Part shown: positions 3,209 through 63,946 of the stretch, in pieces
Position numbering within the stretch: the first letter of the stretch is position 1
Layout: every line of letters starts with the position of its first letter
Source: Bacillota bacterium
GTDB taxonomy: Bacteria; Bacillota; UBA994; UBA5500
Direction: 5' to 3'
NCBI GenBank assembly: GCA_050949085.1
Contig: JBMNFB010000009.1
Location: 130,379 to 194,378 of the forward strand
Length of the DNA stretch: 64,000 nucleotides
Notes under the pieces: model-generated
The model's database searches: none
Seen by the model: only the letters and a program-made list of their open reading frames with translations
What the model was told of the DNA's origin: nothing
Made by a program: the position numbers and the translations under genes

Positions 3209-3283
3209 TGGAGCGGAAAACGAGATTCGAACTCGCGACCCCCGCCTTGGCAAGGCGGTGCTCTACCGCTGAGCTATTTCCGC
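3209..3283 (-). tRNA. tRNA-Gly (anticodon GCC), CCA encoded
   Basis: Reverse complement reads GCGGAAATAGCTCAGCGGTAGAGCACCGCCTTGCCAAGGCGGGGGTCGCGAGTTCGAATCTCGTTTTCCGCTCCA. It folds into a cloverleaf with anticodon loop TTGCCAA. Confidence 0.85.
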
Positions 3284-3347
3284 TTTCTAGGCTTATTTTA
3301 GTACGGCCCGTCCCGAAAGTCAAGCCGTTTCCGGCTGTAAAGATCAG

Positions 3348-3424
3348 TGGCGCGCCCGGCAGGATTCGAACCTGCGACCACCGGATTCGTAGTCCGTTAC
3401 TCTATCCAGCTGAGCTACGGGCGC
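3348..3424 (-). tRNA. tRNA-Arg (anticodon ACG), CCA encoded
   Basis: Reverse complement reads GCGCCCGTAGCTCAGCTGGATAGAGTAACGGACTACGAATCCGGTGGTCGCAGGTTCGAATCCTGCCGGGCGCGCCA. Anticodon loop is CTACGAA. Confidence 0.8.
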
Positions 3425-3456
3425 GAGTTAGGAATGGGACGTGTCGGAAATAGAAA

Positions 3457-3533
<77 letters not shown>

Positions 3534-3585
3534 ATCCGATTTAGCAAAGAAGAAAACGCGGTTACCCCGCGTATATGAGACAAAT

Positions 3586-3663
3586 TGGGGTGGATGATGG
3601 GACTCGAACCCACGACCCCCAGAGCCACAATCTGATGCTCTATCCAACTGAGCTACATCCACC
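3586..3663 (-). tRNA. tRNA-His (anticodon GTG) with encoded G-1 and CCA
   Basis: Reverse complement reads GGTGGATGTAGCTCAGTTGGATAGAGCATCAGATTGTGGCTCTGGGGGTCGTGGGTTCGAGTCCCATCATCCACCCCA. Anticodon loop TTGTGGC. The extra 5' G is typical of tRNA-His. Confidence 0.8.
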
Positions 3664-3744
3664 ATGTCGTCCTTTCAGACGCAAGACTCATTTTAGCACA
3701 TCTCTGGCCTCGCCGCAAGAGGTGCACCACGGTTTGGAAAGGAA

Positions 3745-3821
<77 letters not shown>

Positions 3822-7756: not shown

Positions 7757-7974
7757 GAGAAAACCCTCCTCATGCTGACGGTTTCGTCAGGCGGTATTTA
7801 TATTATTCGGTTAATTCGCCAACCGGTGCCAGCGCTCCTTCCTGGATTTATCCGTTTTCCTGCCAGGAGGGGGTTGCCCTCTGCCAGAGTGAATACCCTT
7901 CTCGGCGCTGGGGATGCTGCCTCGCATGCGGCCGGGCGTCTGCCGTACCCCGGTAGCCTGCTGTCATCAAAGAG

Positions 7975-8013
7975 AACGGGACGGGGAAGCATGCTGCTCT
8001 TACCCCGTCCCGT
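7975..8013 (-). terminator. Hairpin terminator downstream of the MATE gene
   Basis: GGGACGGGG-(16 nt)-CCCCGTCCC stem immediately after the MATE stop codon. It shares the 13-mer AACGGGACGGGGA with the 374-bp repeat family. Confidence 0.5.
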
Positions 8014-8053
8014 CCGCAATGCAACTGCGAAATAGCGCCCCGCTTCCCCTAAC

Positions 8054-9448
8054 CTAGACCTTAATCGTGGCCCACTTGCCGCTGCGGAAACGCAGGAAGG
8101 CGACGCCGCCGCGGACTACCCAGTCCATCAGCTGGGCCAGCCAGGCGCCAGCCAGACTCCAGCCGAAGACGTTAATAAACAGCAGGGAGAGTCCCAGCCG
8201 TACAAACCAGACGCTCGCCGTGCTGACAAAGAGCATGAACCGGGTATCACCGGCACCGCGCAAGGCACCGGACATGATGAAGCTGGTGCCCATCGGGATC
8301 TGAGAGAAGGCCGCAATCCTCAGGCACTGGGAGCCATACATGATGACGTCAGGGTCATCAGTATAGATACGCATCAGCAGGCCCGGGATCAGGAAGAGGA
8401 GTACCCCCATCGCCCCCATCAGCGTGGCACCCAGCTTCCAGGCCTCCCTTCCCGCCTGGCTGGCGCGCTGCGGATTTTTCGCGCCCAGATTCTGTCCCAC
8501 CAGGGTGGTGGCAGCAGCAGAAAATCCGAACCCCGGCATGTAGGAGATCGACTCGGCATTGATCGTCACCTGGTGAGCGGCGTAAAGAACCGTCCCCAAC
8601 CCCGAAACGGTGCGTGCATAGAGTATCTGCCCAGAGCGAGTGATCAATTGCTCAACGGCCGCCGGCAAACCGATGTTAAGCATCCGCTTGATCAACGGCC
8701 AGTCAAAGCCGCGCCGCAGGTGCTCCTTCCGGATATGCAGGACGCGGCGGCCGCTGAAGACAATGTAGACAAAGGTCAGTCCGCCCACACTGCGCGCGAT
8801 GGTCGTCGCCAGGGCAGCGCCGGCCACGCCCATCCTGGGGAAGCCCAGGTTGCCGAAGATGAGCAACCAGTTGAGGATCGGGTTGAGGATATTGATCATC
8901 ATGTTAACCTTCATCGGCGTCCGCGTATCGCCCGCGCCGCGCAGGGAGCCGGTGATCATCATCGAGGAGAGCATGAAGAAGATGCCCGGCATCATGAAGC
9001 GCACATAGCGAACTGCCAGTTCCAGCACGTCAGTCTCTGGATTCATGATGTTGACCAGCTGAGGAGCGAAAAGAAAGCCGATCACGGCAATCAGGCCGGC
9101 GAAGATGGCGGCAATAAGCAGGGACTGGGTCAGAGTCCGGGATGCGTTGTCCGGTTCGCCGGCACCAATGAAGCGAGCGACCAGCGCAGTATTACCGACA
9201 GACACCGCTGAGAAAAGCGACATGGCCAGCATGAAAGGCTGCATGCTGACACCGACAGCCGCAATGGATTCGGCGCCGAGGCGTCCGACCATGGCCATAT
9301 CGACAACCTGTGTGACGGTGGCCAGGATCTGCTCCGCCATGACCGGCAGGGCCAGAGCGAGGATAGCAGCGCGCAGCGGCTTTTCCGCCAGGGTAGCCGC
9401 CAGGGAGTTCTGCGGGCGATTCTGTGCCGAAGCGGTCTGTTCTGACAA
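8054..9448 (-). CDS. MATE family efflux transporter (NorM/DinF-like)
   Basis: 464-aa polytopic membrane protein with MATE repeats (...GRLGAESIAAVGVSMQPF... and a second half ...MGTSFIMSGALRGAGDTRF...). Confidence 0.85.
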   Translation of the reverse strand: MSEQTASAQNRPQNSLAATLAEKPLRAAILALALPVMAEQILATVTQVVDMAMVGRLGAESIAAVGVSMQPFMLAMSLFSAVSVGNTALVARFIGAGEPDNASRTLTQSLLIAAIFAGLIAVIGFLFAPQLVNIMNPETDVLELAVRYVRFMMPGIFFMLSSMMITGSLRGAGDTRTPMKVNMMINILNPILNWLLIFGNLGFPRMGVAGAALATTIARSVGGLTFVYIVFSGRRVLHIRKEHLRRGFDWPLIKRMLNIGLPAAVEQLITRSGQILYARTVSGLGTVLYAAHQVTINAESISYMPGFGFSAAATTLVGQNLGAKNPQRASQAGREAWKLGATLMGAMGVLLFLIPGLLMRIYTDDPDVIMYGSQCLRIAAFSQIPMGTSFIMSGALRGAGDTRFMLFVSTASVWFVRLGLSLLFINVFGWSLAGAWLAQLMDWVVRGGVAFLRFRSGKWATIKV

Positions 9449-9618: not shown

Positions 9619-9663
9619 GTATTAAGGAGCTAGCGACGGCAGCTCGACTGACAAAACTGCATA

Positions 9664-9757
9664 TGCCACAGGGGAGGTCAATTGTTGATCTGAGAGGAAG
9701 CCAGGCTTCGACCCTTAAAACCTGATGCGGGTAATGCCGCCGTAGGGAGAGACTCTG
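9664..9757 (+). promoter_or_regulatory. TPP (thiamine pyrophosphate) riboswitch, THI element
   Basis: Contains GGGGAGG...CTGAGAGG...ACCC..AACCTGATGCGGGTAATGCCGCCGTAGGGAG. This matches the conserved THI-box core (CTGAGA / AACCTGATC-GGNTAATNCC-GCGTAGGGA). Confidence 0.85.
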
Positions 9758-9773
9758 TTTGATTTTGAGGGAA

Positions 9774-9818: not shown

Positions 9819-10607
9819 ATGAGCAAACCGTACTTGCGCAAACTGATGCCGGTGATCCTGCCCGCTATCCTGCTCCTCCTCTGGGAGGCGACGGTGCGGC
9901 TGGGTGAGCTGCCGCTGTATCTCCTCCCCGCCCCCAGCCAGATTCTCAGGGCATTGCTGGACAACCACCAGGTGATCCTGCCCCATGCGCTGATCACGCT
10001 GGGGGAGGCGGCCCTGGGAATAGTCATCGCTACCGGGCTGGCAGCACTGCTGGGGATAGCCATGGATGCCTGGCCTACATTTCGCCAGGCGGTCTATCCG
10101 CTGATGGTCGTCTCCCAATCGGTGCCAATCATCGTTCTGGCTCCGCTCTTTATCATCTATTTTGGGTTTGGACTGGCGCCGAAGGTGATCACGGTGGTGC
10201 TGATGTGCTTCTTCCCCATCGCCGTCAATCTGGCTGATGGGTTTGGCCAGGTATCCCACAGGCTGGTCGATCTGCTGCGCACCATGGGTGCCACCCGGTG
10301 GGACATCTATCGGATCATCAAACTCCCGGCTGCGGCACCTGCGTTTTTCTCCGGGCTGCGCGTAGCGGCTACCTACAGCATCATGGGGGCGGTCGTGGGC
10401 GAGTGGCTAGGTGGGAGCGGTGGCCTCGGCTACTACATGCTGCGGGTCAAGAACGCTTACATGCTGGATCGCGTCTTCGCCATCGTTCTCCTGATCATCG
10501 TTCTCAGCCTGCTCTGTAACGCCGTCGTTCGCGCCGTCGAGTATCTGCTGACACCCTGGACGCGCTCCAGGTCAGCTACCCCAATCAAGGAAGGTGACAA
10601 CACTTGA
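9819..10607 (+). CDS. thiX: ABC transporter permease, NitT/TauT family (ThiX-like, HMP/pyrimidine uptake)
   Basis: Start [14 protein letters not shown] after GGGGGAGG. Permease with 6 transmembrane segments and an EAA loop. Follows the TPP riboswitch. Confidence 0.75.
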
Positions 10608-11587
10608 AGAAATCGCTGCTTGTTGTACTCTGCGCGCTGCTCGTCCTCAGCCTGACTGCCTGCGTGTCGCGGCAGGATCCGGCTGACCTGACCCCTGTCC
10701 GGGTGATCCTTGACTACCTGCCCAACACCAACCACACCGGGCTCTATGTTGCCAAAGCCAGGGGCTACTACGAGGAAGAAGGGCTGAATGTGGAAATCGT
10801 TCAGCCGTCGGAGGGAGCTACCGCCACTCTCATCGCCACCGGCCAGGGTGAGTTTGGCATCTCCTATCAGGAGGATGTGACCTACGCTCGCACGGCGGAA
10901 GATCCGCTGCCCATCAAGGCTATTGCGACCATCGTGCAGCACAATACGTCGGGATTCGCCTCCTATAGGCCGAAGAATATCACCTCGCCCCGCGACTTCG
11001 AAGGAAAGACGTATGTCAGCTGGGGCTCTGAGGCTGAAGCCGCCGTCATCAAGGCGGTCATGGAAGCCGAAGGGGCTGACTTTTCCACCCTGAATCTGGT
11101 CATCGGGGCCGATGCCAGCCTGGCTTCCCTGCAGTCGAACGTTGACCTGATCTGGATTTTCTATGGCTGGGACGGTATTCGGGCCGAAATGCAGGATTTC
11201 CCCCTCAACTACATCGAGCTGCGCCAGCTGGATGAACGGCTGGACTACTATACACCGGTGATCATTGCCGCAGAGCAGTTGCTGAACGAGAACCCCGAGC
11301 TGGCTCGCAAGTTCCTGGCGGCCACCGCCCGGGGATACGCTGATGCCATCGCCAACCCGATCGCAGCCGCCGACATTCTGGCCGAGGCAGTGCCTGAGTA
11401 TGATGCCGCCTTCCTGCGCAAGAGTCAGGAGTATCTCTCCACCAAATATATAGATGATGCCCCCCGCTGGGGTGAGATGAAGGCAGAGGTCTGGGACAAC
11501 TACACCGAGTTCATGCGGGAAGCCGGTCTGATCAAGAAGGATATGCCGGCCGAAGAAGCGTTTACCAACGAATTCCTGCCCAGGTAG
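10604..11587 (+). CDS. thiY: ABC transporter substrate-binding lipoprotein, NMT1/THI5-like (ThiY-like)
   Basis: Lipobox LSLTAC. NMT1/THI5-type periplasmic binding fold (..[16 protein letters not shown]..). Overlaps the permease stop by 4 nt. Confidence 0.75.
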
Positions 11588-11598
11588 GAGAAGAGGCC

Positions 11599-12333
11599 AT
11601 GAACCTGCAGGTCGACACCCTCAGTTTCTCTTTTGGCGAACAGCTGATTCTTGATCGGCTCAGCTTCGCTGCCGAGGCGGGCGAGTTTATCAGCATTCTC
11701 GGCCCATCGGGCTGCGGCAAGAGCACGCTGCTGAACATCCTCGCCGGCCTCTTGCCGCCGGCCGACGGGGCAGTCTTGCTGGATAACCAGCCCCTCAGCG
11801 GCCTGTCGCCGCACGTCGCCTATATGCCGCAGGAGGACCTCCTGATGCCCTGGCGGACAGTCCTGGATAATGTCTGTCTTCCTCTCCTCCTGCGCAAGGT
11901 GGATCGAGCCACTGCCCGCCGTCAGGCGCTGGCTCACTTCGCCGAGTTCGGCCTGGCCGGATACGAGGACGTCTATCCCGATCAGCTTTCAGGTGGCATG
12001 CGCCAGCGTGCCGCCTTCTTGCGTACCGTGCTCTCCGATGCCCAGATCCTTCTCCTGGACGAGCCGTTCGGGGCGCTGGACGCCATCACCCGCCAGCGAC
12101 TCCAGATCTGGCTGGCCGACCTGCGCTGGCGTCTGGGCCGCACCATTGTTCTCGTCACCCACGACATCGACGAAGCCGTCTTCCTCGCTGACCGGATCTA
12201 TGTGCTGTCGCAGCGTCCGGCCCGCATCCAGCTAGAGATCGCCGTTACGACGCCGGCCCAGAAGCGCAACTGGGAATGGTTGCTGGCGGCAGGCGAGACA
12301 AAACAACGCATCTATGCGGCTCTGGAGGTATAG
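11599..12333 (+). CDS. thiZ: ABC transporter ATP-binding protein (ThiZ-like)
   Basis: Walker A GPSGCGKST, signature LSGGMRQRAAF, Walker B ILLLDEPFGALD. Confidence 0.85.
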   Translation: MNLQVDTLSFSFGEQLILDRLSFAAEAGEFISILGPSGCGKSTLLNILAGLLPPADGAVLLDNQPLSGLSPHVAYMPQEDLLMPWRTVLDNVCLPLLLRKVDRATARRQALAHFAEFGLAGYEDVYPDQLSGGMRQRAAFLRTVLSDAQILLLDEPFGALDAITRQRLQIWLADLRWRLGRTIVLVTHDIDEAVFLADRIYVLSQRPARIQLEIAVTTPAQKRNWEWLLAAGETKQRIYAALEV

Positions 12334-16960: not shown

Positions 16961-17773
16961 ATGAAGGTCTACATTTCGGTGGACATCGAGGGTGTCTGCG
17001 GAGTAGTCAATGGGGAAATGACCAGTCCCGCGGGGCGCGGCTATGAACAGGCCCGGCGGCAGATGACGGCCGAGGCTAACGCCGCTGTCCTGGGGGCCAG
17101 GGCAGCCGGGGCGCAGCTGATCGTCGTCAACGACTCCCACGGCAGCATGACCAATCTGATTCCGGCTGAGCTGGATGAAGCGGCTGAACTGATCCAGGGC
17201 AGCCCCAAGCCGCTCTCGATGATGGAGGGGGTACAGGAGGGTTTTGATGCAGTCCTGTTTGTGGGCTACCACGCGCGCATGCTGCAGCATGGGATCCTCA
17301 GCCACACCATCAGCGGCGGCACGGTGAGCACTGTCCGCCTCAACGGTGTGCCGATGGGTGAGACAGCCATCAACGCCGCTATCGCCGGCTACTACAAAGC
17401 GCCGGTCGTCTTTGTGGCCGGAGATAAGGCTGTGACCGAAGAGGCCAGGGCGCTGCTGGGCGACATTGAGACGGTAGCGACCAAGACGGCCATCACCCGC
17501 TACTCGGCGCGTTCGCTGCATCCGGCCAGAGCCTGCCGCGAAATTCAGGCTGGCGTCCAGCGGGCGCTGCAGAACCTGGCCGACAGGAAGCCCTTCCTGC
17601 CGGAAGGACCCTACACGTTTGAACTGGAGTTCATCCAGGCGGGTCAAGCCGATGCGGCCTCGCTGATGCCGGGCACCGTACGCGTCAATGGCAACACAGT
17701 GAGCTTCACCAGCGACGACTATGTGGAAGCCTTCAGGGGGCTGCGCAGCATGATCAGCCTGGCGCGCCCCTAG
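16961..17773 (+). CDS. dppA: D-aminopeptidase DppA (peptidase M55)
   Basis: N-terminus MKVYISVDIEGVCGV plus the conserved His/Glu ligand pattern of the M55 family. Confidence 0.8.
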   Translation: MKVYISVDIEGVCGVVNGEMTSPAGRGYEQARRQMTAEANAAVLGARAAGAQLIVVNDSHGSMTNLIPAELDEAAELIQGSPKPLSMMEGVQEGFDAVLFVGYHARMLQHGILSHTISGGTVSTVRLNGVPMGETAINAAIAGYYKAPVVFVAGDKAVTEEARALLGDIETVATKTAITRYSARSLHPARACREIQAGVQRALQNLADRKPFLPEGPYTFELEFIQAGQADAASLMPGTVRVNGNTVSFTSDDYVEAFRGLRSMISLARP

Positions 17774-17814
17774 CAGCGGCGCGGACGCCCGCGAGGGTCA
17801 GGAGGCGGTGCTAA

Positions 17815-18765
17815 ACCGGCTATGCTCAGCCAGGGCACACCCCCTCCGGCGCTGGCGATGCCTCCAGAACTAAGGTATCAAGCGAAACGGGACGGGGAGC
17901 AGCAAAACTCGCCCGCCTAAGACCAGGATTTCTGGTCCTGAGTGACGCCCAGCAGTCTGGTGCACTATCTGGCACCGCCAGGCTCGGGGCGCTTAGGCGG
18001 ACTCAGACAGTTGCTGCATTTTCCCCCGTTCCGTTTCGCTTCTTGTCAACTGACGGCTAATCGCAAGGCACCTTCGCGGGTGATGCCCTGACTTTATCGC
18101 CACTTGCCTACTCCGGTGCAACAACCCTTTGTACCGCGTGACCGGCCACGGCCCTCTGCAGGAGCACAGAACTCAGCCGTGAGGAACGGTCGCTCGCCAG
18201 CCCCCAGGGCACACCCTCTCCGGCGCTGGCGATGCCTCCAGAACTAAGGTATCAAGCGAAACGGGACGGGGAGCAGCAAAACTCGCCCGCCTAAGACCAG
18301 GATTTCTGGTCCTGAGTGACGCCCAGCAGTCTGATGCACTATCAGGCACTGCCAGGCTCGGATTGCTTAGGCGAGCTCAGGCAGTTGCTGCATTTTCCCC
18401 CGTTCCGTTTCGCTTTTTGTCAACTGACGGCTAATCGCAAGGCACCTTCGCGGGTGATGCCCTGTCTTTATCGCCACTTGCCTACTCCGGTGCAATAACC
18501 CTTTGTACCGCGTGACCGGCCACGGCCCTCTGCAGGAGCACAGAACTCAGCCGTGAGGAACGGTCGCTCGCCAGCCCCCAGGGCACACCCTCTCCGGCGC
18601 TGGCGATGCCTCCAGAACTAGGGTATCAAGCGAAACGGGACGGGGAGCAGCAAAACTCGCCCGCCGAAGGCCAGGATTTCTGGTCCTGAGTGACGCCCAG
18701 CAGTCTGATGCACTACCTGGCACCGGCAGGCTCGGATCGCTTAGGCGAGCTCAGATAGTTGCTGC
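17815..18765. repeat. 374-bp tandem direct repeat, 2.5 copies, about 95% identity, non-coding
   Basis: Copies begin at 17831, 18205 and 18579 (exact period 374). The third copy is truncated after GTTGCTGC at 18765. Lies in the convergent intergenic region between dppA and the aminotransferase. Confidence 0.9.
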
Positions 18766-18917
18766 TAGAGCACGGCCGCGGGTACATAAGAGTTTGAGCA
18801 CAAAGAAGGGACGGGTGATCCAAAGGGTCTCCCGCCCCTTTCTGCTTTCCTCCAACGAAGGCTAACAGCGCGGCGGCCTGGCTGCGGAACGCTCGGCGGG
18901 GTGACAACCCCTGCGGC

Positions 18918-20078
18918 TCACCAGCGCAAGCGTCTGATTCGCTCCACTGCCTCCCGCAGCCGGGCATCGTTGACAGTGAGGGAGAAGCGGATGTAGCCCT
19001 CTCCGTGCTCGCCAAAACCGATGCCAGGCACCACAACGACGCCGATCTCCCTGAGCATGTGCATAGCGAATTCCATGGACGTGTAACCTGCCGGCACCGG
19101 CGTCCAGACATAGAAGCTGGCGCGCGGCACATGAGGAGAGAGACGGCAGGCGCGCAGCCCTGCCACCAGAAGGTCGCGCCGCTCCTGATAGAGGGCAGCC
19201 TGCTGCCTGACGGGGTCATGTACGTGGCGCAAGGCATAGGCACCTGCCGCCTGGATGGCGCCGAACTGGCTGGAATCCACGTTCACCTTGATCCGGCGCA
19301 GGTTTTCCAGCAGGCGCCGCCCCCCTACCGCCATTCCCAGCCGCCAGCCCGTCATGTTGTAGGTCTTGGAGAGCGAGTTGAACTCAATGGCGACATCTTT
19401 CGCCCCTGGAATCTGCAGGACGCTGGGCGGTCGATAGCCGTCAAAAGCAACTTCACTGTAGGCCAGGTCATGGGCCAGGACCAGCTGGTGCCGCCGTGCA
19501 AAGGCCACTGCCTCCTCAAAGAAATCCAGGTCTACCGTAGCCCCGGTCGGGTTGTTTGGGTAGTTGAGGTAGAGCAGGGTCGCGCGTTGACAGACCTCAG
19601 CCGGCACCAGAGAGAAGTCAGGCAGGAAATCGTTTTCCGGCCGCAAGGGCAGTAAATAGGACTCAGCGCCGGCGAAGATGGCGCTGATCCGATAAACCGG
19701 GTAGCCGGGGTCTGGCACCAACACTACGTCGCCCGGTCCCGCCCAGCCCAGGGAGAGATGGGCGATTCCCTCCTTGGAACCGATCAGGGCCAGCACTTCC
19801 TCATCAGGATCCAGCTCTACCGCAAACCGCGCCTGATACCACTCAGCCACCGCCTGCCGAAAATCGCGGATCCCAGCATAGGGCGGGTACTGATGATGCT
19901 CCGCCTGGGCAGCCAGCCGTTGCAGCTGCTGTACGATCACATCTGGCGTCGGCTGATCTGGATCACCTACCCCGAGGCTGATGATGTCCCGCCCTTCCCG
20001 GATGGCAGCTTCCTGCAAGCGGTCAATCTCCGCAAAAATGTAAGCCGGCAGTTGATCGATTCTCGCCGGGTTTTTCAT
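18918..20078 (-). CDS. Class I/II pyridoxal-phosphate aminotransferase (LL-diaminopimelate aminotransferase-like)
   Basis: Start MKNPARIDQLPAYIFAEID after GGAGGAG. The LGVGDPDQPTP and SLSKTYNMTGWRLG (PLP-lysine) motifs resemble DapL / AlaT-type enzymes. Confidence 0.65.
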   Translation of the reverse strand: MKNPARIDQLPAYIFAEIDRLQEAAIREGRDIISLGVGDPDQPTPDVIVQQLQRLAAQAEHHQYPPYAGIRDFRQAVAEWYQARFAVELDPDEEVLALIGSKEGIAHLSLGWAGPGDVVLVPDPGYPVYRISAIFAGAESYLLPLRPENDFLPDFSLVPAEVCQRATLLYLNYPNNPTGATVDLDFFEEAVAFARRHQLVLAHDLAYSEVAFDGYRPPSVLQIPGAKDVAIEFNSLSKTYNMTGWRLGMAVGGRRLLENLRRIKVNVDSSQFGAIQAAGAYALRHVHDPVRQQAALYQERRDLLVAGLRACRLSPHVPRASFYVWTPVPAGYTSMEFAMHMLREIGVVVVPGIGFGEHGEGYIRFSLTVNDARLREAVERIRRLRW

Positions 20079-20152
20079 CTGGCACTCCTCCTCATGCAGG
20101 TACAATCGGCTTCACTATCTCTATTCAGCCGAGAGGAGGAGCATGCCTCGGC

Positions 20153-50546: not shown

Positions 50547-50981
50547 CTACACGCCCTCTCTCCTGCCTGCTAATAGTTGAGGACAGAAGCAGAACTGCCT
50601 GGCGCCTGTCAAATCTCTGCTCCAGCCCACTACTAAACTTATCCTGAATGCTTGCTGACTATTTCTAGCGGGCAGTATCGTCTGCTTTCGGTCCAGGCTC
50701 CACCCAGAGGAAACCGGCCATGGTCGCTCAGGGTACCATCCGCTGTCTGGCGGCGAACATCGTCTTCTTTGGCTCGGGGCTGTTGCACTAGCAGGAGTTC
50801 CTTAGTCAGGGCGCGCCGCTTCGTGCGCGTCGATGTCTCCAGAATTGATGTACCAAGCGAAACGCGATAGAGAGCAGCAAAAATCGCCCAACAAGACAAG
50901 AGCATTGGGTACCCAGCCCAAGGGTCGGGTCCCTGCCGCCGTATCCCAGCAGGGCACAGTGGATGGGCTTGCGACAGCCCC

Positions 50982-55002: not shown

Positions 55003-55132
55003 GCCCTGCAGGAAACGCGCCTGATGGGGTGTGCCCTGCCCCGTCCTGAGATTCACTTCCAGAAAAAAACCCACTGTAACCCGGGAGGGAAACAGTGGGT
55101 TTGTTCATTGCTACAGCCCGAATAGATCCATC

Positions 55133-62086: not shown

Positions 62087-63946
62087 TTATCTGCTTCTGC
62101 GGCGAACCCGCTTCTGATAGATGGGAAGATGGTCAGGCAGCGACCCTACAATAACCTTTTGTTGCTCAGCGTCCCAGAGGAAGTAGATGCGGATCAGGTG
62201 GGTGCCTACCCCGTGTTTGAGGTGTAGGTCGAGCAAGCGCCGTTCTCTGATTCCCTCCTGATTGGTTACCTGGATTTCATAGTGCCGCTTGGCTACCTGC
62301 AGTGTCGCCCTGCCCACAGAGCATGGCACCCAGAGATAGTCAATCTGGTAGAGCTCGAGCATCGCCTGATCGATCTCCTGCCGCCGATACCGCGCATAGG
62401 CAGCCAGAAAATATAGACCATCAGCTAGCGCCGTCGGCGAGGCGGGGCGCTTCGCCTTTCTCAGCTCCGCTACCGCGCGTTCGTGGAGAACTACATCCTC
62501 GGCGAGGTTATCCCTGACCCATTCCTCGATCTGCCCCAGCGTTGTTGGAAACTTCGCCGCGTCCTGGGCCTTGCGCTGATAGAAGGCGATGGCTCTGTCC
62601 CGATCAGCGATCAGGGAGGCCTGTCCTGCTAGCTTGTCCCGCAGCTGATCCACCTGCTGCCGCAGCTCGCTACAGCGGTCCACTGCCTGGCGGAACTCCC
62701 GCTCGAGGCGCTCATTGGCTGCGGCACGCTGGATGATGTCGCGGCGCTCCTCCTGTAGCTCGCGGATCCTGGTGCGGAGCTCGTTGCATTCTTCCTGCAA
62801 GAGCTCCACCGTCGCCCCCTGCTTGGCGAGACTGGCGGTTCTCCGGCTGCTCTGCTGGATCTGGGCATCGGAAAAGAACAGCACATCGTGGAAATCGACG
62901 TCCCGGCGTTTGGGGAAGAGCTTTAGTTTCTCAGCTAGTTCCCGGCGAGCCTGCTCTGGGTCGCAGACGATCTCCTGATAGGGGATTACCTCCACATACG
63001 AGTCTGGATAGAAGATGACCGCGTCGCCGGGCTGCAAGTCACTGTCGGGAACGCATTGCCTAAGCTTCGCCAACTGACTGTCGGCGCAACTGGCCACATG
63101 GGCAAAGGCGACCAACGACTGCGCCAACCGCTGAGCGTTGATCTGTCGCGGCCGAATTTCCTTCGGCGGCAGCAGGCGAATCGCCAGCCGAGCGCGCTGA
63201 GACTCCAGTACCGAAGCAGGCATCAATGCTCTGTGGAGTTCCTCGCCCTCAAATCCGTGCAGCGCCGCAGCAATCTCGGCACTCGGCGGCTCCGTGATGA
63301 CCACCAGCGGCAATGCCCTCTCCCTGGCGCGGATCAACCCCTTCAGGTTGCGGAAGTCGGCATTGGTCGTTACGGGTATTATCTCGGGCCGAAGCTTCAC
63401 CACCTGCCGCAATCCCAGAAGGGGGTTGTTGGCGATACTTCTGACGGCCACCGGCCGGAATACCTCACAATCCACCGTCTGGTGCTCCGGCTCTGAGCAG
63501 ATGGTGCGAAACCCCACCTGAACTCGATCGCGGACGATCCGCAGGGCCATATTGGTCTCAAAGAGCCTGCCGATAACCGGCGGGCGCGGCACTGGGCCGT
63601 CCTGATTGGCACCCTGATCGGGTTCAACCAGCCGCAGGGCCCAGATGCCATCCTCTGGCACGTAAAGCACGTCTACTTTATGACCTAAATCCGCATGGAA
63701 CGACCTGATGGCGCCTGCCGGCAGCGATGCATAATCGTCGGCTGTCGGCAGCTCCATCTCAGCCGGCAGCTCGCCAAAAGCCGCAAATCGTTTGCGCAAC
63801 CAGCTCATGATCTCCAGCACAGCTATCTGTAATGCCAGATCGGGTGCCAGCTGCCTGTTGTAGATCTCCGCATAGAGCTGAAAAGTTGAGTATCGTTTGT
63901 TTACCTGTAACGGAATGGGCTCTCCTCTCACCCGTGCCATGTTCAT
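62087..63946 (-). CDS. Large hypothetical protein (619 aa) with central coiled-coil
   Basis: Strong ribosome-binding site AGGAGG. An N-terminal domain of about 330 aa, an Arg/Glu-rich coiled-coil at about 380-470, and a C-terminal domain of about 150 aa. No recognisable motif. Confidence 0.5.
   Translation of the reverse strand: MNMARVRGEPIPLQVNKRYSTFQLYAEIYNRQLAPDLALQIAVLEIMSWLRKRFAAFGELPAEMELPTADDYASLPAGAIRSFHADLGHKVDVLYVPEDGIWALRLVEPDQGANQDGPVPRPPVIGRLFETNMALRIVRDRVQVGFRTICSEPEHQTVDCEVFRPVAVRSIANNPLLGLRQVVKLRPEIIPVTTNADFRNLKGLIRARERALPLVVITEPPSAEIAAALHGFEGEELHRALMPASVLESQRARLAIRLLPPKEIRPRQINAQRLAQSLVAFAHVASCADSQLAKLRQCVPDSDLQPGDAVIFYPDSYVEVIPYQEIVCDPEQARRELAEKLKLFPKRRDVDFHDVLFFSDAQIQQSSRRTASLAKQGATVELLQEECNELRTRIRELQEERRDIIQRAAANERLEREFRQAVDRCSELRQQVDQLRDKLAGQASLIADRDRAIAFYQRKAQDAAKFPTTLGQIEEWVRDNLAEDVVLHERAVAELRKAKRPASPTALADGLYFLAAYARYRRQEIDQAMLELYQIDYLWVPCSVGRATLQVAKRHYEIQVTNQEGIRERRLLDLHLKHGVGTHLIRIYFLWDAEQQKVIVGSLPDHLPIYQKRVRRRSR

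What the first reader, a model, noticed from the sequence alone, without database searches (positions are those of the whole stretch)
17815..18765. 374-bp tandem repeat (2.5 copies) with internal inverted repeats and a hypervariable core
Copies start at 17831, 18205 and 18579 (period exactly 374 bp), in the convergent intergenic space between dppA and the aminotransferase. No strong terminator sits immediately flanking the genes. Each unit contains inverted-repeat arms (CAAGCGAAACGGGACGGGGA at 17879-17898 and CCCCCGTTCCGTTTCGCTTCTTG at 18023-18045). They can pair as a 19-bp stem with a 3-nt bulge and one G-U, around a loop of about 125 nt. Nearly all inter-copy differences cluster in about 60 nt of that loop (17950-18010); elsewhere the copies are near-identical. 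A perfect small hairpin GACCAG-GATTT-CTGGTC also lies inside each unit. The short ORFs in the region are inconsistent between copies, so a structured non-coding RNA, a MITE-like element or a recombination hotspot is more likely than a protein gene. The substitution pattern does not match diversity-generating-retroelement (adenine-specific) mutagenesis.
Basis: seen in the sequence. Interest (0 to 1): 0.7.

Follow-up and report, generated by a model that had tools for sequence, protein, structure and literature searches.

The report
Tandemly amplified palindromic intergenic repeat element
The 374-bp tandem repeat is real, but it is best read as a locally amplified copy of a scattered, hairpin-forming "junk-like" repeat family of this uncultured Bacillota lineage built around a terminator-like stem, not as a special hypervariable RNA gene.

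Summary
There is a 374-bp unit in 2.5 copies at 17830-18765, 95% identical with no indels. It has an 18-bp basal stem, and inter-copy differences cluster in unit positions 130-178 (Fisher p = 4e-6).

The unit is not unique to this site. Diverged members lie at window 7882-8020 and 50804-50908, with a fragment at 55015-55038. Two further members sit on contigs of other organisms (L024, L028). Orthologous intergenic regions in relatives are empty, holding only a 50-170 bp plain terminator.

Unit positions 1-260 form one long imperfect palindrome with inverted ends CAGGGCA(T)CACCC. In short family members the same arms close a 7-16 nt loop followed by a T-rich tail, which is a terminator-like hairpin. 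The window's roughly 120-nt "loop", including the variable core, is therefore an expanded hairpin centre.

The three core variants are identical across independent metagenomes, so they are fixed paralogue differences and not ongoing hypervariation. They are not compensatory. Rfam finds nothing, and no reverse transcriptase, integrase or transposase lies within about 10 kb. Alleles with 0.5 and 1.5 copies exist, which points to recombination between units.

Verdict: a new member of the MITE / SPRITE / BOX / ERIC kind of interspersed repeat, tandemly amplified. Interest is modest.

The parts
17826..18765 (+). Whole array: 2.5 tandem units of 374 bp, including the conserved CAGCC lead-in of the first unit
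   Evidence: TRF, alignment A1, family alignment
17831..18204 (+). Unit 1 (complete)
   Evidence: The copy-1 core is seen independently in L010 and L008
18205..18578 (+). Unit 2 (complete)
   Evidence: The copy-2 core is seen independently in L001, L002 and L003
18579..18765 (+). Unit 3. It is truncated after unit position 187, so it has the 5' arm and the core but no 3' arm and cannot form the long hairpin
   Evidence: The same truncation and right junction (TAGAGCACGG) occur in L001, L002, L003, L009 and L022
17831..18090 (.). 260-bp imperfect palindrome of unit 1, with TIR-like ends CAGGGCACACCC (17831-17842) and GGGTGATGCCCTG (18078-18090). The equivalent in unit 2 is 18205-18464
   Evidence: The self reverse-complement alignment covers positions 1-260 (60.6% over 279 columns, E = 2e-5). 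Arm against arm gives 89 of 144 columns identical, and 0 of 1000 shuffles reach that score
17880..17897 (+). 5' arm of the 18-bp basal stem, AAGCGAAACGGGACGGGG (also at 18254-18271 and 18628-18645)
   Evidence: It is identical in L024 and L028
18024..18041 (+). 3' arm of the basal stem, CCCCGTTCCGTTTCGCTT, followed by a T-rich tail (CTTGTC in unit 1; TTTGTC in unit 2 at 18398-18421)
   Evidence: The homologous short hairpin in L028 is scored terminator-like
17960..18008 (+). Divergent core of unit 1 (unit positions 130-178). The cores of units 2 and 3 are at 18334-18382 and 18708-18756
17921..17937 (+). Small perfect hairpin GACCAG-GATTT-CTGGTC inside the expanded hairpin centre
18091..18204 (+). 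114-bp tail of the unit, with a second predicted hairpin. Its first 40 nt or so are shared with L028
18805..18841 (.). Bidirectional terminator-like hairpin between the array and the aminotransferase stop. It is not part of the repeat
7882..8020 (+). Diverged family member: the 5' module plus a short hairpin AACGGGACGGGG-16 nt-CCCCGTCCCGT, lying 3' of the minus-strand MatE gene
   Evidence: nhmmer of module A gives E = 5.6e-4. See also (-34.7 kcal/mol, z = -5.9 on the minus strand)
50804..50908 (+). Decayed family member: 76% identical to unit positions 1-96, including the start of the expanded centre. The 3' arm is missing
   Evidence: blastn E = 6e-14, nhmmer E = 1.9e-8, sequence
55015..55038 (-). 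Solo fragment of the terminal motif (CAGGGCACACCCC...)
   Evidence: weak: nhmmer E = 0.16

Best explanation
The array is a locally amplified copy of a lineage-specific interspersed intergenic repeat. It is non-coding, palindromic and modular, of the MITE / SPRITE / BOX / ERIC kind.

**Anatomy.** One element consists of four parts:
- a 5' module, (CAGC)CAGGGCACACCCCCTCCGGCGCTGGCGATG;
- an 18-bp G+C-rich stem with a T-rich 3' tail, which in short family members is an ordinary-looking intrinsic terminator hairpin;
- an inverted copy of the 5' module;
- a tail of about 110 bp.

In the variant found here the hairpin centre has grown to about 120 nt.

**Origin (inferred).** The element inserted between the convergent M55 aminopeptidase and aminotransferase genes. 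This site is empty in related species. It was then duplicated head to tail by unequal recombination or replication slippage between unit ends. Recombination between units continues to change copy number, giving alleles of 0.5, 1.5 and 2.5 copies.

**Divergent core (inferred).** The flanks of the units are kept about 99% alike by recent duplication or gene conversion. The weakly paired, asymmetric centre of the palindrome escapes homogenisation, or mutates faster, for example through hairpin-apex breakage and repair. The core is an evolutionary by-product and not a specificity determinant.

**Effect on the cell (inferred).** If there is any effect, it is opportunistic. When transcribed as the 3' end of dppA, the long hairpin with its U-rich tail would terminate transcription or stabilise the mRNA 3' end.

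Shown here: the repeat, the family, the palindrome, the empty sites, the fixed cores and the copy-number alleles. Inferred: the transposition and amplification mechanism, the terminator activity and the cause of core divergence.
For: **The family is dispersed.**
- Window 50804-50908 matches the unit (blastn E = 6e-14; nhmmer E = 1.9e-8).
- Window 7882-8020 matches module A (nhmmer E = 5.6e-4; sequence).
- L024 is 90% identical over 82 nt and lies directly after an M42 peptidase gene in another organism.
- L028 holds a 293-bp unit plus the start of a second one, in a 56% G+C organism.
- Four Logan contigs all break 24 nt into the unit. This fits further near-identical copies elsewhere.

**Orthologous sites are empty.** The dppA intergenic regions of relatives are 50-170 bp and hold only a plain hairpin. 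The M42 loci L031-L036 lack the element. About 90 kb of DNA from relatives contains no family member.

**The unit is a palindrome with inverted ends**.

**The hairpin is terminator-like.**
- L028: 14 pairs, 8-nt loop, tail ACTTTCTTTC, scored by the scan and folding at -28.3 kcal/mol, z = -7.1.
- Window 7968-8030, minus strand: -34.7 kcal/mol with tail UUCUCUUUG.

**Nothing points to another system.**
- There is no Rfam family.
- No mobile or RT genes lie nearby.
- The three cores are fixed across samples.
- Core changes are private to each copy and not compensatory, and the predicted apical folds differ.

**Copy number varies.** L009 has 0.5 copy, with a crossover between unit positions 160 and 177 that a k = 127 graph collapse cannot create. 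L003 has 1.5 copies.

**Published repeat families have the same properties.** MITEs are small, have TIRs, fold into long stem-loops and are often co-transcribed at gene 3' ends (PMC3184786). SPRITE has an 18-bp duplex plus a U-rich tract and is enriched between convergent genes. BOX is modular, 67-637 bp, with tandem boxB modules (PMC3049150).
Against: - No target-site duplication could be identified, and no autonomous element with matching ends was found. The rest of the genome could not be searched, so mobility by transposition is not shown.
- Only five or six family members were available, three of them fragmentary.
- The roughly tenfold excess of substitutions in the core, with near-identical flanks, is not directly explained by simple duplication. 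The gene-conversion and apex-repair explanation is an inference.
- The consensus terminator scan does not call the long hairpins of the array, because their loop is too large.
- No transcript data were available.
- The 1.5-copy allele (L003) could be an assembly collapse.
Confidence: 0.68

Rival explanations
1. The array encodes paralogous structured small RNAs. These could be 3'-UTR-derived from dppA or independently transcribed. Each would be a long hairpin whose divergent 50-nt apical segment acts as a specificity (seed or guide-like) region.
For: - The fold is strong and better than shuffles.
- One G-U pair in the basal stem slightly favours the plus-strand RNA.
- No terminator lies between the dppA stop and the array, so co-transcription is likely.
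- Divergence is concentrated in one segment.
- The hairpin is followed by a U-rich tail.
Against: - There is no Rfam match.
- No promoter-like site is found in the array.
- The stems are invariant, so they give no covariation signal. Core changes break predicted pairs, and the apical folds differ between copies.
- Other family members lack the whole apical domain (L028, window 7882-8020) or the 3' arm (copy 3, window 50804-50908).
- A natural allele, L009, keeps only the truncated half-unit.
Confidence: 0.1
2. The hairpins are single-strand DNA recombination or transposition substrates, and the tandem array arose from repeated site-specific or rolling-circle insertion. Candidate systems are integron attC-like cassettes, or the ends of IS200/IS605- or IS91-type elements.
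For: - The unit is a long imperfect hairpin with bulges.
- Units are bounded by the same CAGCC(AGG) motif, and L028 also carries one unit plus the first 24 nt or so of a second.
- The motifs GCCTAAG ... CTTAGGC resemble the attC R''/R' boxes.
- The dppA intergenic region is an insertion hot spot in relatives, as shown by L012.
Against: - The defining attC triplets AAC/GTT are replaced by AAG/CTT.
- No integrase, transposase or Rep gene lies within about 10 kb.
- Family members occur singly at scattered loci and not in cassette arrays.
- The variable part lies inside otherwise identical units. In integron arrays the cassettes differ while the attC sites stay alike, which is the reverse pattern.
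Confidence: 0.1
3. The unit encodes a small protein. Candidates are a type I toxin, or the micro-ORF MPPELRYQAKRDGEQQNSPA that starts at the conserved ATG of the 5' module.
For: - The ATG is conserved in all five loci and stays in frame with the stem arm in window 7882-8020.
- The minus-strand 31-aa and 58-aa ORFs are in register between copies.
- Several differences from window 50804-50908 fall on third codon positions (read directly from the sequence).
Against: - The period of 374 is not a multiple of 3.
- There is no Shine-Dalgarno sequence before the ATG.
- The frame is closed after 10 codons in L028.
- All three changes in L024 are non-synonymous. Overall about 4 of 13 changed codons are synonymous, which is what neutrality predicts.
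- The peptides are hydrophilic or arginine-rich, with no membrane segment.
- JGI and ENA gene callers called nothing in this region.
- Module D differs from L028 by indels of 1, 1, 5 and 2 nt.
Confidence: 0.03
4. The array is an assembly artefact, produced by false expansion or collapse of a repeat.
For: - L001 has a garbled first copy and L002 has an N gap there.
- Short-read contigs break at the repeat.
- Copy number differs between assemblies.
Against: - Three distinct cores, each with its own junctions, recur identically in independent assemblies from different samples and assemblers.
- L010 spans the left flank, copy 1 and the next copy. L001, L002 and L003 span copy 2, copy 3 and the right flank.
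Confidence: 0.04

Closest known systems
[quoted passage not shown] 2011, PMC3049150)
   Same: Both are interspersed non-coding repeats of a Bacillota genome built around an unusually long duplex followed by a U-rich tract. The duplex is 18 bp in both. Both lie close to gene 3' ends and between convergent genes. In both, target-site duplications could not be established.
   Different: - There is no sequence relationship: SPRITE is about 105 bp and A+T-rich, while this element is 300-374 bp with about 61% G+C.
- This element carries extra conserved flanking modules that make the whole a 260-bp palindrome.
- It has an expanded hairpin centre.
- It is tandemly amplified here.
BOX elements (boxA-boxB(n)-boxC) of pneumococci and S. 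suis (PMC3049150, PMC3184786)
   Same: Both have a modular, mosaic build in which modules are present, absent or multiplied in different copies. Both vary in length through tandem repetition. Both are predicted to form stable stem-loops when transcribed.
   Different: In BOX only the roughly 45-bp internal boxB module is repeated. Here the entire 374-bp unit, palindrome plus tail, is repeated. The two share no sequence similarity.
ERIC/IRU, Correia, RUP, Chunjie and other bacterial MITEs (review PMC3184786)
   Same: All are small and non-coding, with inverted ends. All are imperfect palindromes that fold into long hairpins. All are intergenic and often sit in 3' UTRs. All are lineage-specific, and size variants arise from internal insertions or deletions.
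   Different: Classical MITEs have defined target-site duplications and often a partner IS with the same TIRs, and neither could be shown here. In this element the best-conserved block is internal (the terminator-like stem) and not terminal.
Minisatellite-containing MITE of Porphyromonas gingivalis (PMC4596501)
   Same: Both combine a MITE-type interspersed element with tandem repetition and copy-number variation.
   Different: According to that paper's abstract, the P. gingivalis case is a minisatellite contained within the MITE. Here whole 374-bp units are in tandem. I did not read the paper beyond the abstract.
Integron attC sites / CALIN arrays
   Same: Both involve imperfect palindromes with a variable centre, spaced a few hundred bp apart in direct orientation.
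   Different: The R''/R' consensus (RYYYAAC / GTTRRRY) is not met. There is no integrase nearby. The inter-hairpin 'cassettes' are identical rather than diverse. Family members are scattered singly.

Membership tests
MITE (miniature inverted-repeat transposable element) | Small size (under about 400-600 bp) and no transposase gene | tested here: met
   The unit is 374 bp and the L028 unit 293 bp. Only short ORFs are present, and they are unsupported
MITE (miniature inverted-repeat transposable element) | Terminal inverted repeats | tested here: met
   CAGGGCACACCC matches the reverse complement of GGGTGATGCCCTG. The arms align at 89 of 144 columns, and 0 of 1000 shuffles reach that score. The same holds in L028. 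The repeats are imperfect, and the unit has a further 114-bp tail outside them
MITE (miniature inverted-repeat transposable element) | Target-site duplications flanking the element | tested here: inconclusive
   No direct repeat outside the conserved CAGCCAGG lead-in is visible at the five loci. The empty sites in relatives are too diverged to align
MITE (miniature inverted-repeat transposable element) | Multiple dispersed copies in a genome, with presence/absence polymorphism between relatives | tested here: met
   There are four loci in the 64-kb window and two on other contigs. About 90 kb of DNA from relatives holds none, and the orthologous sites are empty
MITE (miniature inverted-repeat transposable element) | A related autonomous IS with matching TIRs | not testable with these tools
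No transposase lies within about 10 kb
Terminator-like interspersed repeat (SPRITE-like, by function not homology) | A long duplex followed by a U-rich tract | tested here: met
   The array has an 18-bp stem followed by UUUCGCUU(C/U)UUGUC. The L028 hairpin is scored terminator-like and folds with z = -7.1. The long-loop version is not called by the scan
Terminator-like interspersed repeat (SPRITE-like, by function not homology) | Location at gene 3' ends or between convergent genes | tested here: inconclusive
   All five loci lie downstream of at least one gene 3' end and none lies between divergent genes. With n = 5 this is not significant, since p is about 0.24 under a 25% divergent expectation
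Terminator-like interspersed repeat (SPRITE-like, by function not homology) | Actual termination of transcription | not testable with these tools
   This needs Term-seq or an in vitro termination assay
Any curated RNA family (Rfam 15) | A covariance-model hit at or near the gathering score | tested here: not met
   The best hits in 17000-19500 have E of 0.5 or more and score far below gathering. The whole-window gathering scan finds only tRNAs and a TPP riboswitch
Integron attC / cassette array | R'' RYYYAAC and R' GTTRRRY boxes, with an integron integrase or a CALIN context | tested here: not met
   The nearest motifs are GCCTAAG / CTTAGGC, so the AAC/GTT triplets are not kept. No integrase appears in the neighbourhood Pfam calls
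Diversity-generating retroelement | A reverse transcriptase nearby, and a template/variable repeat pair differing at adenines | tested here: not met
   No RT lies within about 10 kb. The substitutions are G/A, T/A, C/T, G/T and C/G, not adenine-specific. The cores are fixed across samples
Type I toxin-antitoxin tandem repeats (LDR / Sib-Ibs style) | A conserved small hydrophobic ORF in each repeat | tested here: not met
   The ORFs are hydrophilic or Arg/Pro-rich and are not conserved in L028

The most novel reading that the evidence does not exclude
The apical 50 nt of each long hairpin could be a functional specificity segment. In this reading the array is a small 'library' of paralogous hairpin RNAs, or ssDNA hairpins, carried by a mobile terminator-like element, and each core is fixed under diversifying selection to recognise a different nucleic-acid or protein partner. 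Alternatively, the core could mark a previously undescribed hairpin-apex-targeted mutational process in long bacterial palindromes.
Probability: 0.07. Interest if true: 0.7.

Novelty: new member of a known kind. Interest (0 to 1): 0.27.

Why it matters
**Practical value**
- It explains why short-read assemblies of this common anaerobic-digester Bacillota break at this locus and at others.
- It gives a strain-typing marker of VNTR type, through copy number and core haplotype.
- It adds a G+C-rich, terminator-centred, modular repeat family to the few described outside model pathogens.

**Conceptual value**
- It is a clean natural example of a terminator-like hairpin behaving as a dispersed element.
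- It also shows a long palindrome whose centre diverges about ten times faster than its flanks. That could be used to study gene conversion against hairpin-apex mutagenesis.

It does not currently open a new class of system.

Tried and rejected
- **Rfam.** An E-value search of 17000-19500 and a gathering-threshold scan of the whole window found nothing at the array.
- **Phage and plasmid collections.** blastn in distant mode found no match.
- **Viral contigs.** Two patterns gave no hits.
- **Genome contigs.** The 20-mer of the arm gave one chance hit in an alphaproteobacterial MAG whose flanks are unrelated. The source species seems absent from that collection, or its representative lacks the region.
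- **Metagenome contigs.** The degenerate arm pattern gave 13 loci. Of these, L022, L024 and L028 are real. L023 is a look-alike terminator, and the rest are chance matches.
- **Sigma-70 promoter and terminator scans of the array** found nothing.
- **Synteny in relatives** showed empty sites only. The M42 orthologue loci are also empty.
- **Extending the genome beyond the window ends** gave no new members.
- **Coding tests.** I compared the micro-ORF and the minus-strand ORFs across family members. They were rejected because of frame loss in L028 and neutral codon-position statistics.
- **Covariation in the core.** I checked several candidate pairings by hand (129-133/142-146, 127-131/137-141, 83-91/162-170). 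None is maintained across the three copies.
- **Internal half-unit periodicity.** None was found beyond the inverted symmetry.
Full report
**1.

Tandem Repeats Finder reports a single array at 17830-18765, with period 374, 2.5 copies, 95% matches and no indels. Aligning the three copies confirms the starts at 17831, 18205 and 18579. Copy 3 stops after unit position 187.

The array lies between the stop of an M55 D-aminopeptidase gene (16961-17773, +) and the stop of a class I/II aminotransferase gene (18918-20105, -). The 5'-arm 27-mer occurs exactly three times in the window, against none in 100 shuffles.

Each full unit folds into a long imperfect hairpin of about 165 nt. Its base is an 18-bp stem, AAGCGAAACGGGACGGGG / CCCCGTTCCGTTTCGCTT, with one G-U pair. 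The whole unit folds better than shuffles on both strands, with z = -5.2 and -4.9.

Differences between copies cluster in unit positions 130-178:
- Copy 1 vs copy 2: 9 of 13 differences (Fisher p = 3.9e-6).
- Copy 2 vs copy 3: 7 of 10.
- Copy 1 vs copy 3: 8 of 12.

First, a bidirectional terminator-like hairpin does lie at 18805-18841, next to the aminotransferase stop. Second, the minus-strand ORFs are in register between copies.

**2. It is not an assembly artefact, and copy number varies.**

The exact DppA protein is found on about 20 metagenome contigs, from anaerobic digesters among other sources. The organism is an uncultured Bacillota MAG.

L010 independently shows the left flank, copy 1 and the start of a further copy. 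L001, L002 and L003 show copy 2, copy 3 and the right flank. Each of the three core variants recurs base for base in independent samples. The cores are therefore fixed paralogue differences, not a segment that is currently hypervariable.

L009 is a k = 127 assembly. It carries only one half-unit between the same two flanks, and its core is copy-2-like up to position 171 and copy-3-like at positions 177-178. The switch falls within 17 nt, so it cannot come from a graph collapse at k = 127. It is best explained as a real deletion allele produced by recombination between units. L003 has 1.5 copies, which could be real or a collapse.

Four Logan contigs all end 24 nt into the first unit. That is earlier than the array's own copies would force. 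I infer from this that other loci in those samples share the same 30-mer.

**3. The site is empty in relatives.**

DppA homologues of 70-78% identity lie in the same gene order. Their intergenic regions are only 50-170 bp and hold one plain terminator hairpin (L013, L014, L016). One relative, L012, instead has a 3.2-kb, three-gene insertion at this spot, whereas L013, which encodes the identical DppA, has the 50-bp spacer. The convergent spacer is therefore an insertion hot spot, and the repeat is a lineage-specific insertion.

**4. The unit belongs to a dispersed, modular family.**

A pattern scan of metagenome contigs with the stem arm returned three real hits:
- L022 is the same locus.
- L024 has the 5' 82 nt of the unit at 90% identity, directly after an M42 peptidase gene. 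The contig ends in the arm.
- L028 has a 293-bp unit, followed by the first 24 nt or so of a second unit, in a 56% G+C contig.

The L024 M42 protein exists on that contig only. Its nearest relatives are 81% identical, and their loci lack the element. L024 therefore comes from a different organism.

Sensitive searches of the window itself found further members:
- 50804-50908 is 76% identical to unit positions 1-96 (blastn E = 6e-14, nhmmer E = 1.9e-8). It includes the first bases of the expanded hairpin centre but has no 3' arm.
- 7882-8020 has the 5' module (nhmmer E = 5.6e-4) plus a short hairpin with the same arms.
- 55015-55038 is a weak 25-nt fragment.

About 90 kb from related species contains none. 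The roughly 10 kb beyond the left window end adds none either.

**5. Anatomy.**

Unit positions 1-260 align with their own reverse complement (E = 2e-5). Arm against arm gives 89 of 144 identical columns, and 0 of 1000 shuffles reach that score. The shared blocks are:
- CAGGGCA(T)CACCC at the ends;
- GCGAT;
- the 18-nt stem;
- GCAGCAA.

L028 shows the same inverted ends. A 114-bp tail with a second hairpin follows, and its first 40 nt or so are also shared with L028.

In L028 and at 7882-8020 the same stem closes a loop of only 7-16 nt. In L028 it is followed by ACTTTCTTTC, which the scan scores as terminator-like (14 pairs, 9 G-C) and which folds with z = -7.1. At 7968-8030 the minus strand gives -34.7 kcal/mol with a UUCUCUUUG tail, 40 nt after the stop of the upstream gene.

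The '125-nt loop' of the finding, divergent core included, is therefore an expanded centre of a terminator-like palindrome. The short loop at 7882-8020 (AGCA|TGCTGC) looks like the joined outer ends of the long centre (GCAGCA...TGCTGC). This fits growth or central deletion of a palindrome; that reading is an inference from the sequences.

**6. What the evidence does not support.**

- *A curated RNA family.* There is none.
- *A structure-conserving RNA.* The arms are conserved as sequence across loci, with no compensatory changes. Core substitutions break candidate pairs, and the minimum-energy apical folds differ between copies. Several family members, and the natural 0.5-copy allele, lack half of the hairpin.
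- *A cis-regulatory leader.* No locus has a co-oriented gene downstream.
- *A protein.* The period of 374 is not a multiple of 3. The conserved ATG lacks a ribosome-binding site, its frame closes after 10 codons in L028, the codon-position statistics look neutral, and gene callers called nothing.
- *DGR, integron, CRISPR or type I/III TA.* The defining features are absent; see the membership table. No reverse transcriptase, integrase or transposase lies within about 10 kb.

**7. Most likely mechanism.**

The element is a non-coding interspersed repeat that spread in this lineage. It landed in a convergent spacer, where insertions are tolerated. It was then amplified head to tail and is still gaining and losing units by recombination.

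The flanks of the units are about 99% identical. The same modules differ by 10-24% between loci (L024, 50804-50908). The near-identity inside the array therefore reflects recent duplication or gene conversion, not constraint.

That leaves the core's roughly 17% pairwise divergence to explain. It needs either escape from conversion, because divergence blocks heteroduplex formation, or faster change at the asymmetric centre of a long palindrome, or conversion from other family members. All three are inferences.

The changes private to copy 2 create two short perfect palindromes, CTGAT..ATCAG and GGCAcTGCC (read directly; GAGCTC is shared by copies 2 and 3). This hints at template-switch events in a quasi-palindrome. 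I did not test this.

Functionally, dppA has no terminator before the array. The first long hairpin with its U-rich tail is therefore the likely 3' end or stabiliser of its mRNA, as proposed for SPRITE, Correia and ERIC elements (PMC3049150, PMC3184786). This was not tested here.

**8. Comparison and novelty.**

The closest analogues by behaviour are:
- SPRITE, which has an 18-bp duplex plus a U-rich tract and is enriched between convergent genes;
- BOX, which is modular with tandem internal modules;
- ERIC, Correia and Chunjie-type MITEs, which are imperfect palindromes forming long hairpins and often lie in 3' UTRs.

There is no sequence homology to any of them. Target-site duplications and a partner IS could not be shown, so strict MITE membership stays open.

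I file it as a new member of a known kind. It has two unusual features: tandem amplification of the whole 374-bp unit, and a palindrome centre that diverges about tenfold faster than its flanks. Interest is modest.

Noticed in passing
window 7882-8020 (+): A diverged member of the same repeat family, with the 5' module and a short hairpin that uses the same arms. It sits 40 nt after the stop of the minus-strand MatE-like gene (8054-9448), where it probably serves as that gene's terminator.
   Followed up: partly
window 50804-50908 (+) and 55015-55038 (-): A decayed family member, 76% identical to unit positions 1-96 with no 3' arm, lies between two minus-strand genes. A 25-nt solo fragment of the terminal motif CAGGGCACACCCC lies next to an ordinary terminator.
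   Followed up: partly
L012 5814-9015 versus L013 5814-5862: Two contigs encode the identical DppA homologue (78% identical to the window's). One carries a 3.2-kb insertion of three genes (200 aa unknown, 399 aa CarboxypepD_reg, 98 aa unknown) at the same dppA/aminotransferase spacer. The other has a 50-bp spacer. This convergent spacer is a recurrent insertion site.
   Followed up: no
L028 1301-1272 (-); homologous window positions about 18045-18010 and 18419-18384 (-): A promoter-like match TTGAAA-18 nt-GATAAT (10 of 12) overlaps the family hairpin on the minus strand of L028. At the equivalent unit positions the match is TTGACA-20 nt-GAAAAT, where the spacer is too long. This could be an outward-facing promoter in some family members.
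   Followed up: no
L004-L007, position 4894 (= window 17854): Four independent Logan contigs all end 81 nt after the dppA stop, only 24 nt into the first unit. This suggests that another locus in those samples shares the 30-mer TCAGCCAGGGCACACCCCCTCCGGCGCTGG, meaning there are more near-identical family copies than could be fetched.
   Followed up: no
window 18334-18382 (core of unit 2): The substitutions private to copy 2 create two short perfect palindromes, CTGAT-GCACT-ATCAG and GGCA-C-TGCC. GAGCTC is shared with copy 3. This may be a signature of template switching in a quasi-palindrome.
   Followed up: no
window 9660-9765 (+): A TPP riboswitch (Rfam RF00059, 74.7 bits) lies upstream of an NMT1/THI5-like binding protein and ABC transporter genes (10604-12333).
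   Followed up: no
window 3209-3821 (-): A cluster of five tRNA genes: Gly-GCC, Arg-ACG, Arg-TCG, His-GTG and Arg-TCT.
   Followed up: no
window 62087-63946 (-): The look-up for this 619-aa protein, which has no Pfam hit, returned only three short contigs and not the 569-kb or 402-kb contigs that carry the rest of the window. The right end of the window may be strain-variable.
   Followed up: no
L013 5824-5857: The plain dppA terminator of a relative (GAAACGCGGGGACAG-TGAC-CTGTCCCCGCGTTTC, -30.2 kcal/mol) resembles the family stem (GAAACGGGACGGGG...). So does the window's own terminator at 18805-18841 (GGGACGGG...). Either terminators of this lineage share a common form, or the repeat's stem derives from a host terminator.
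   Followed up: partly
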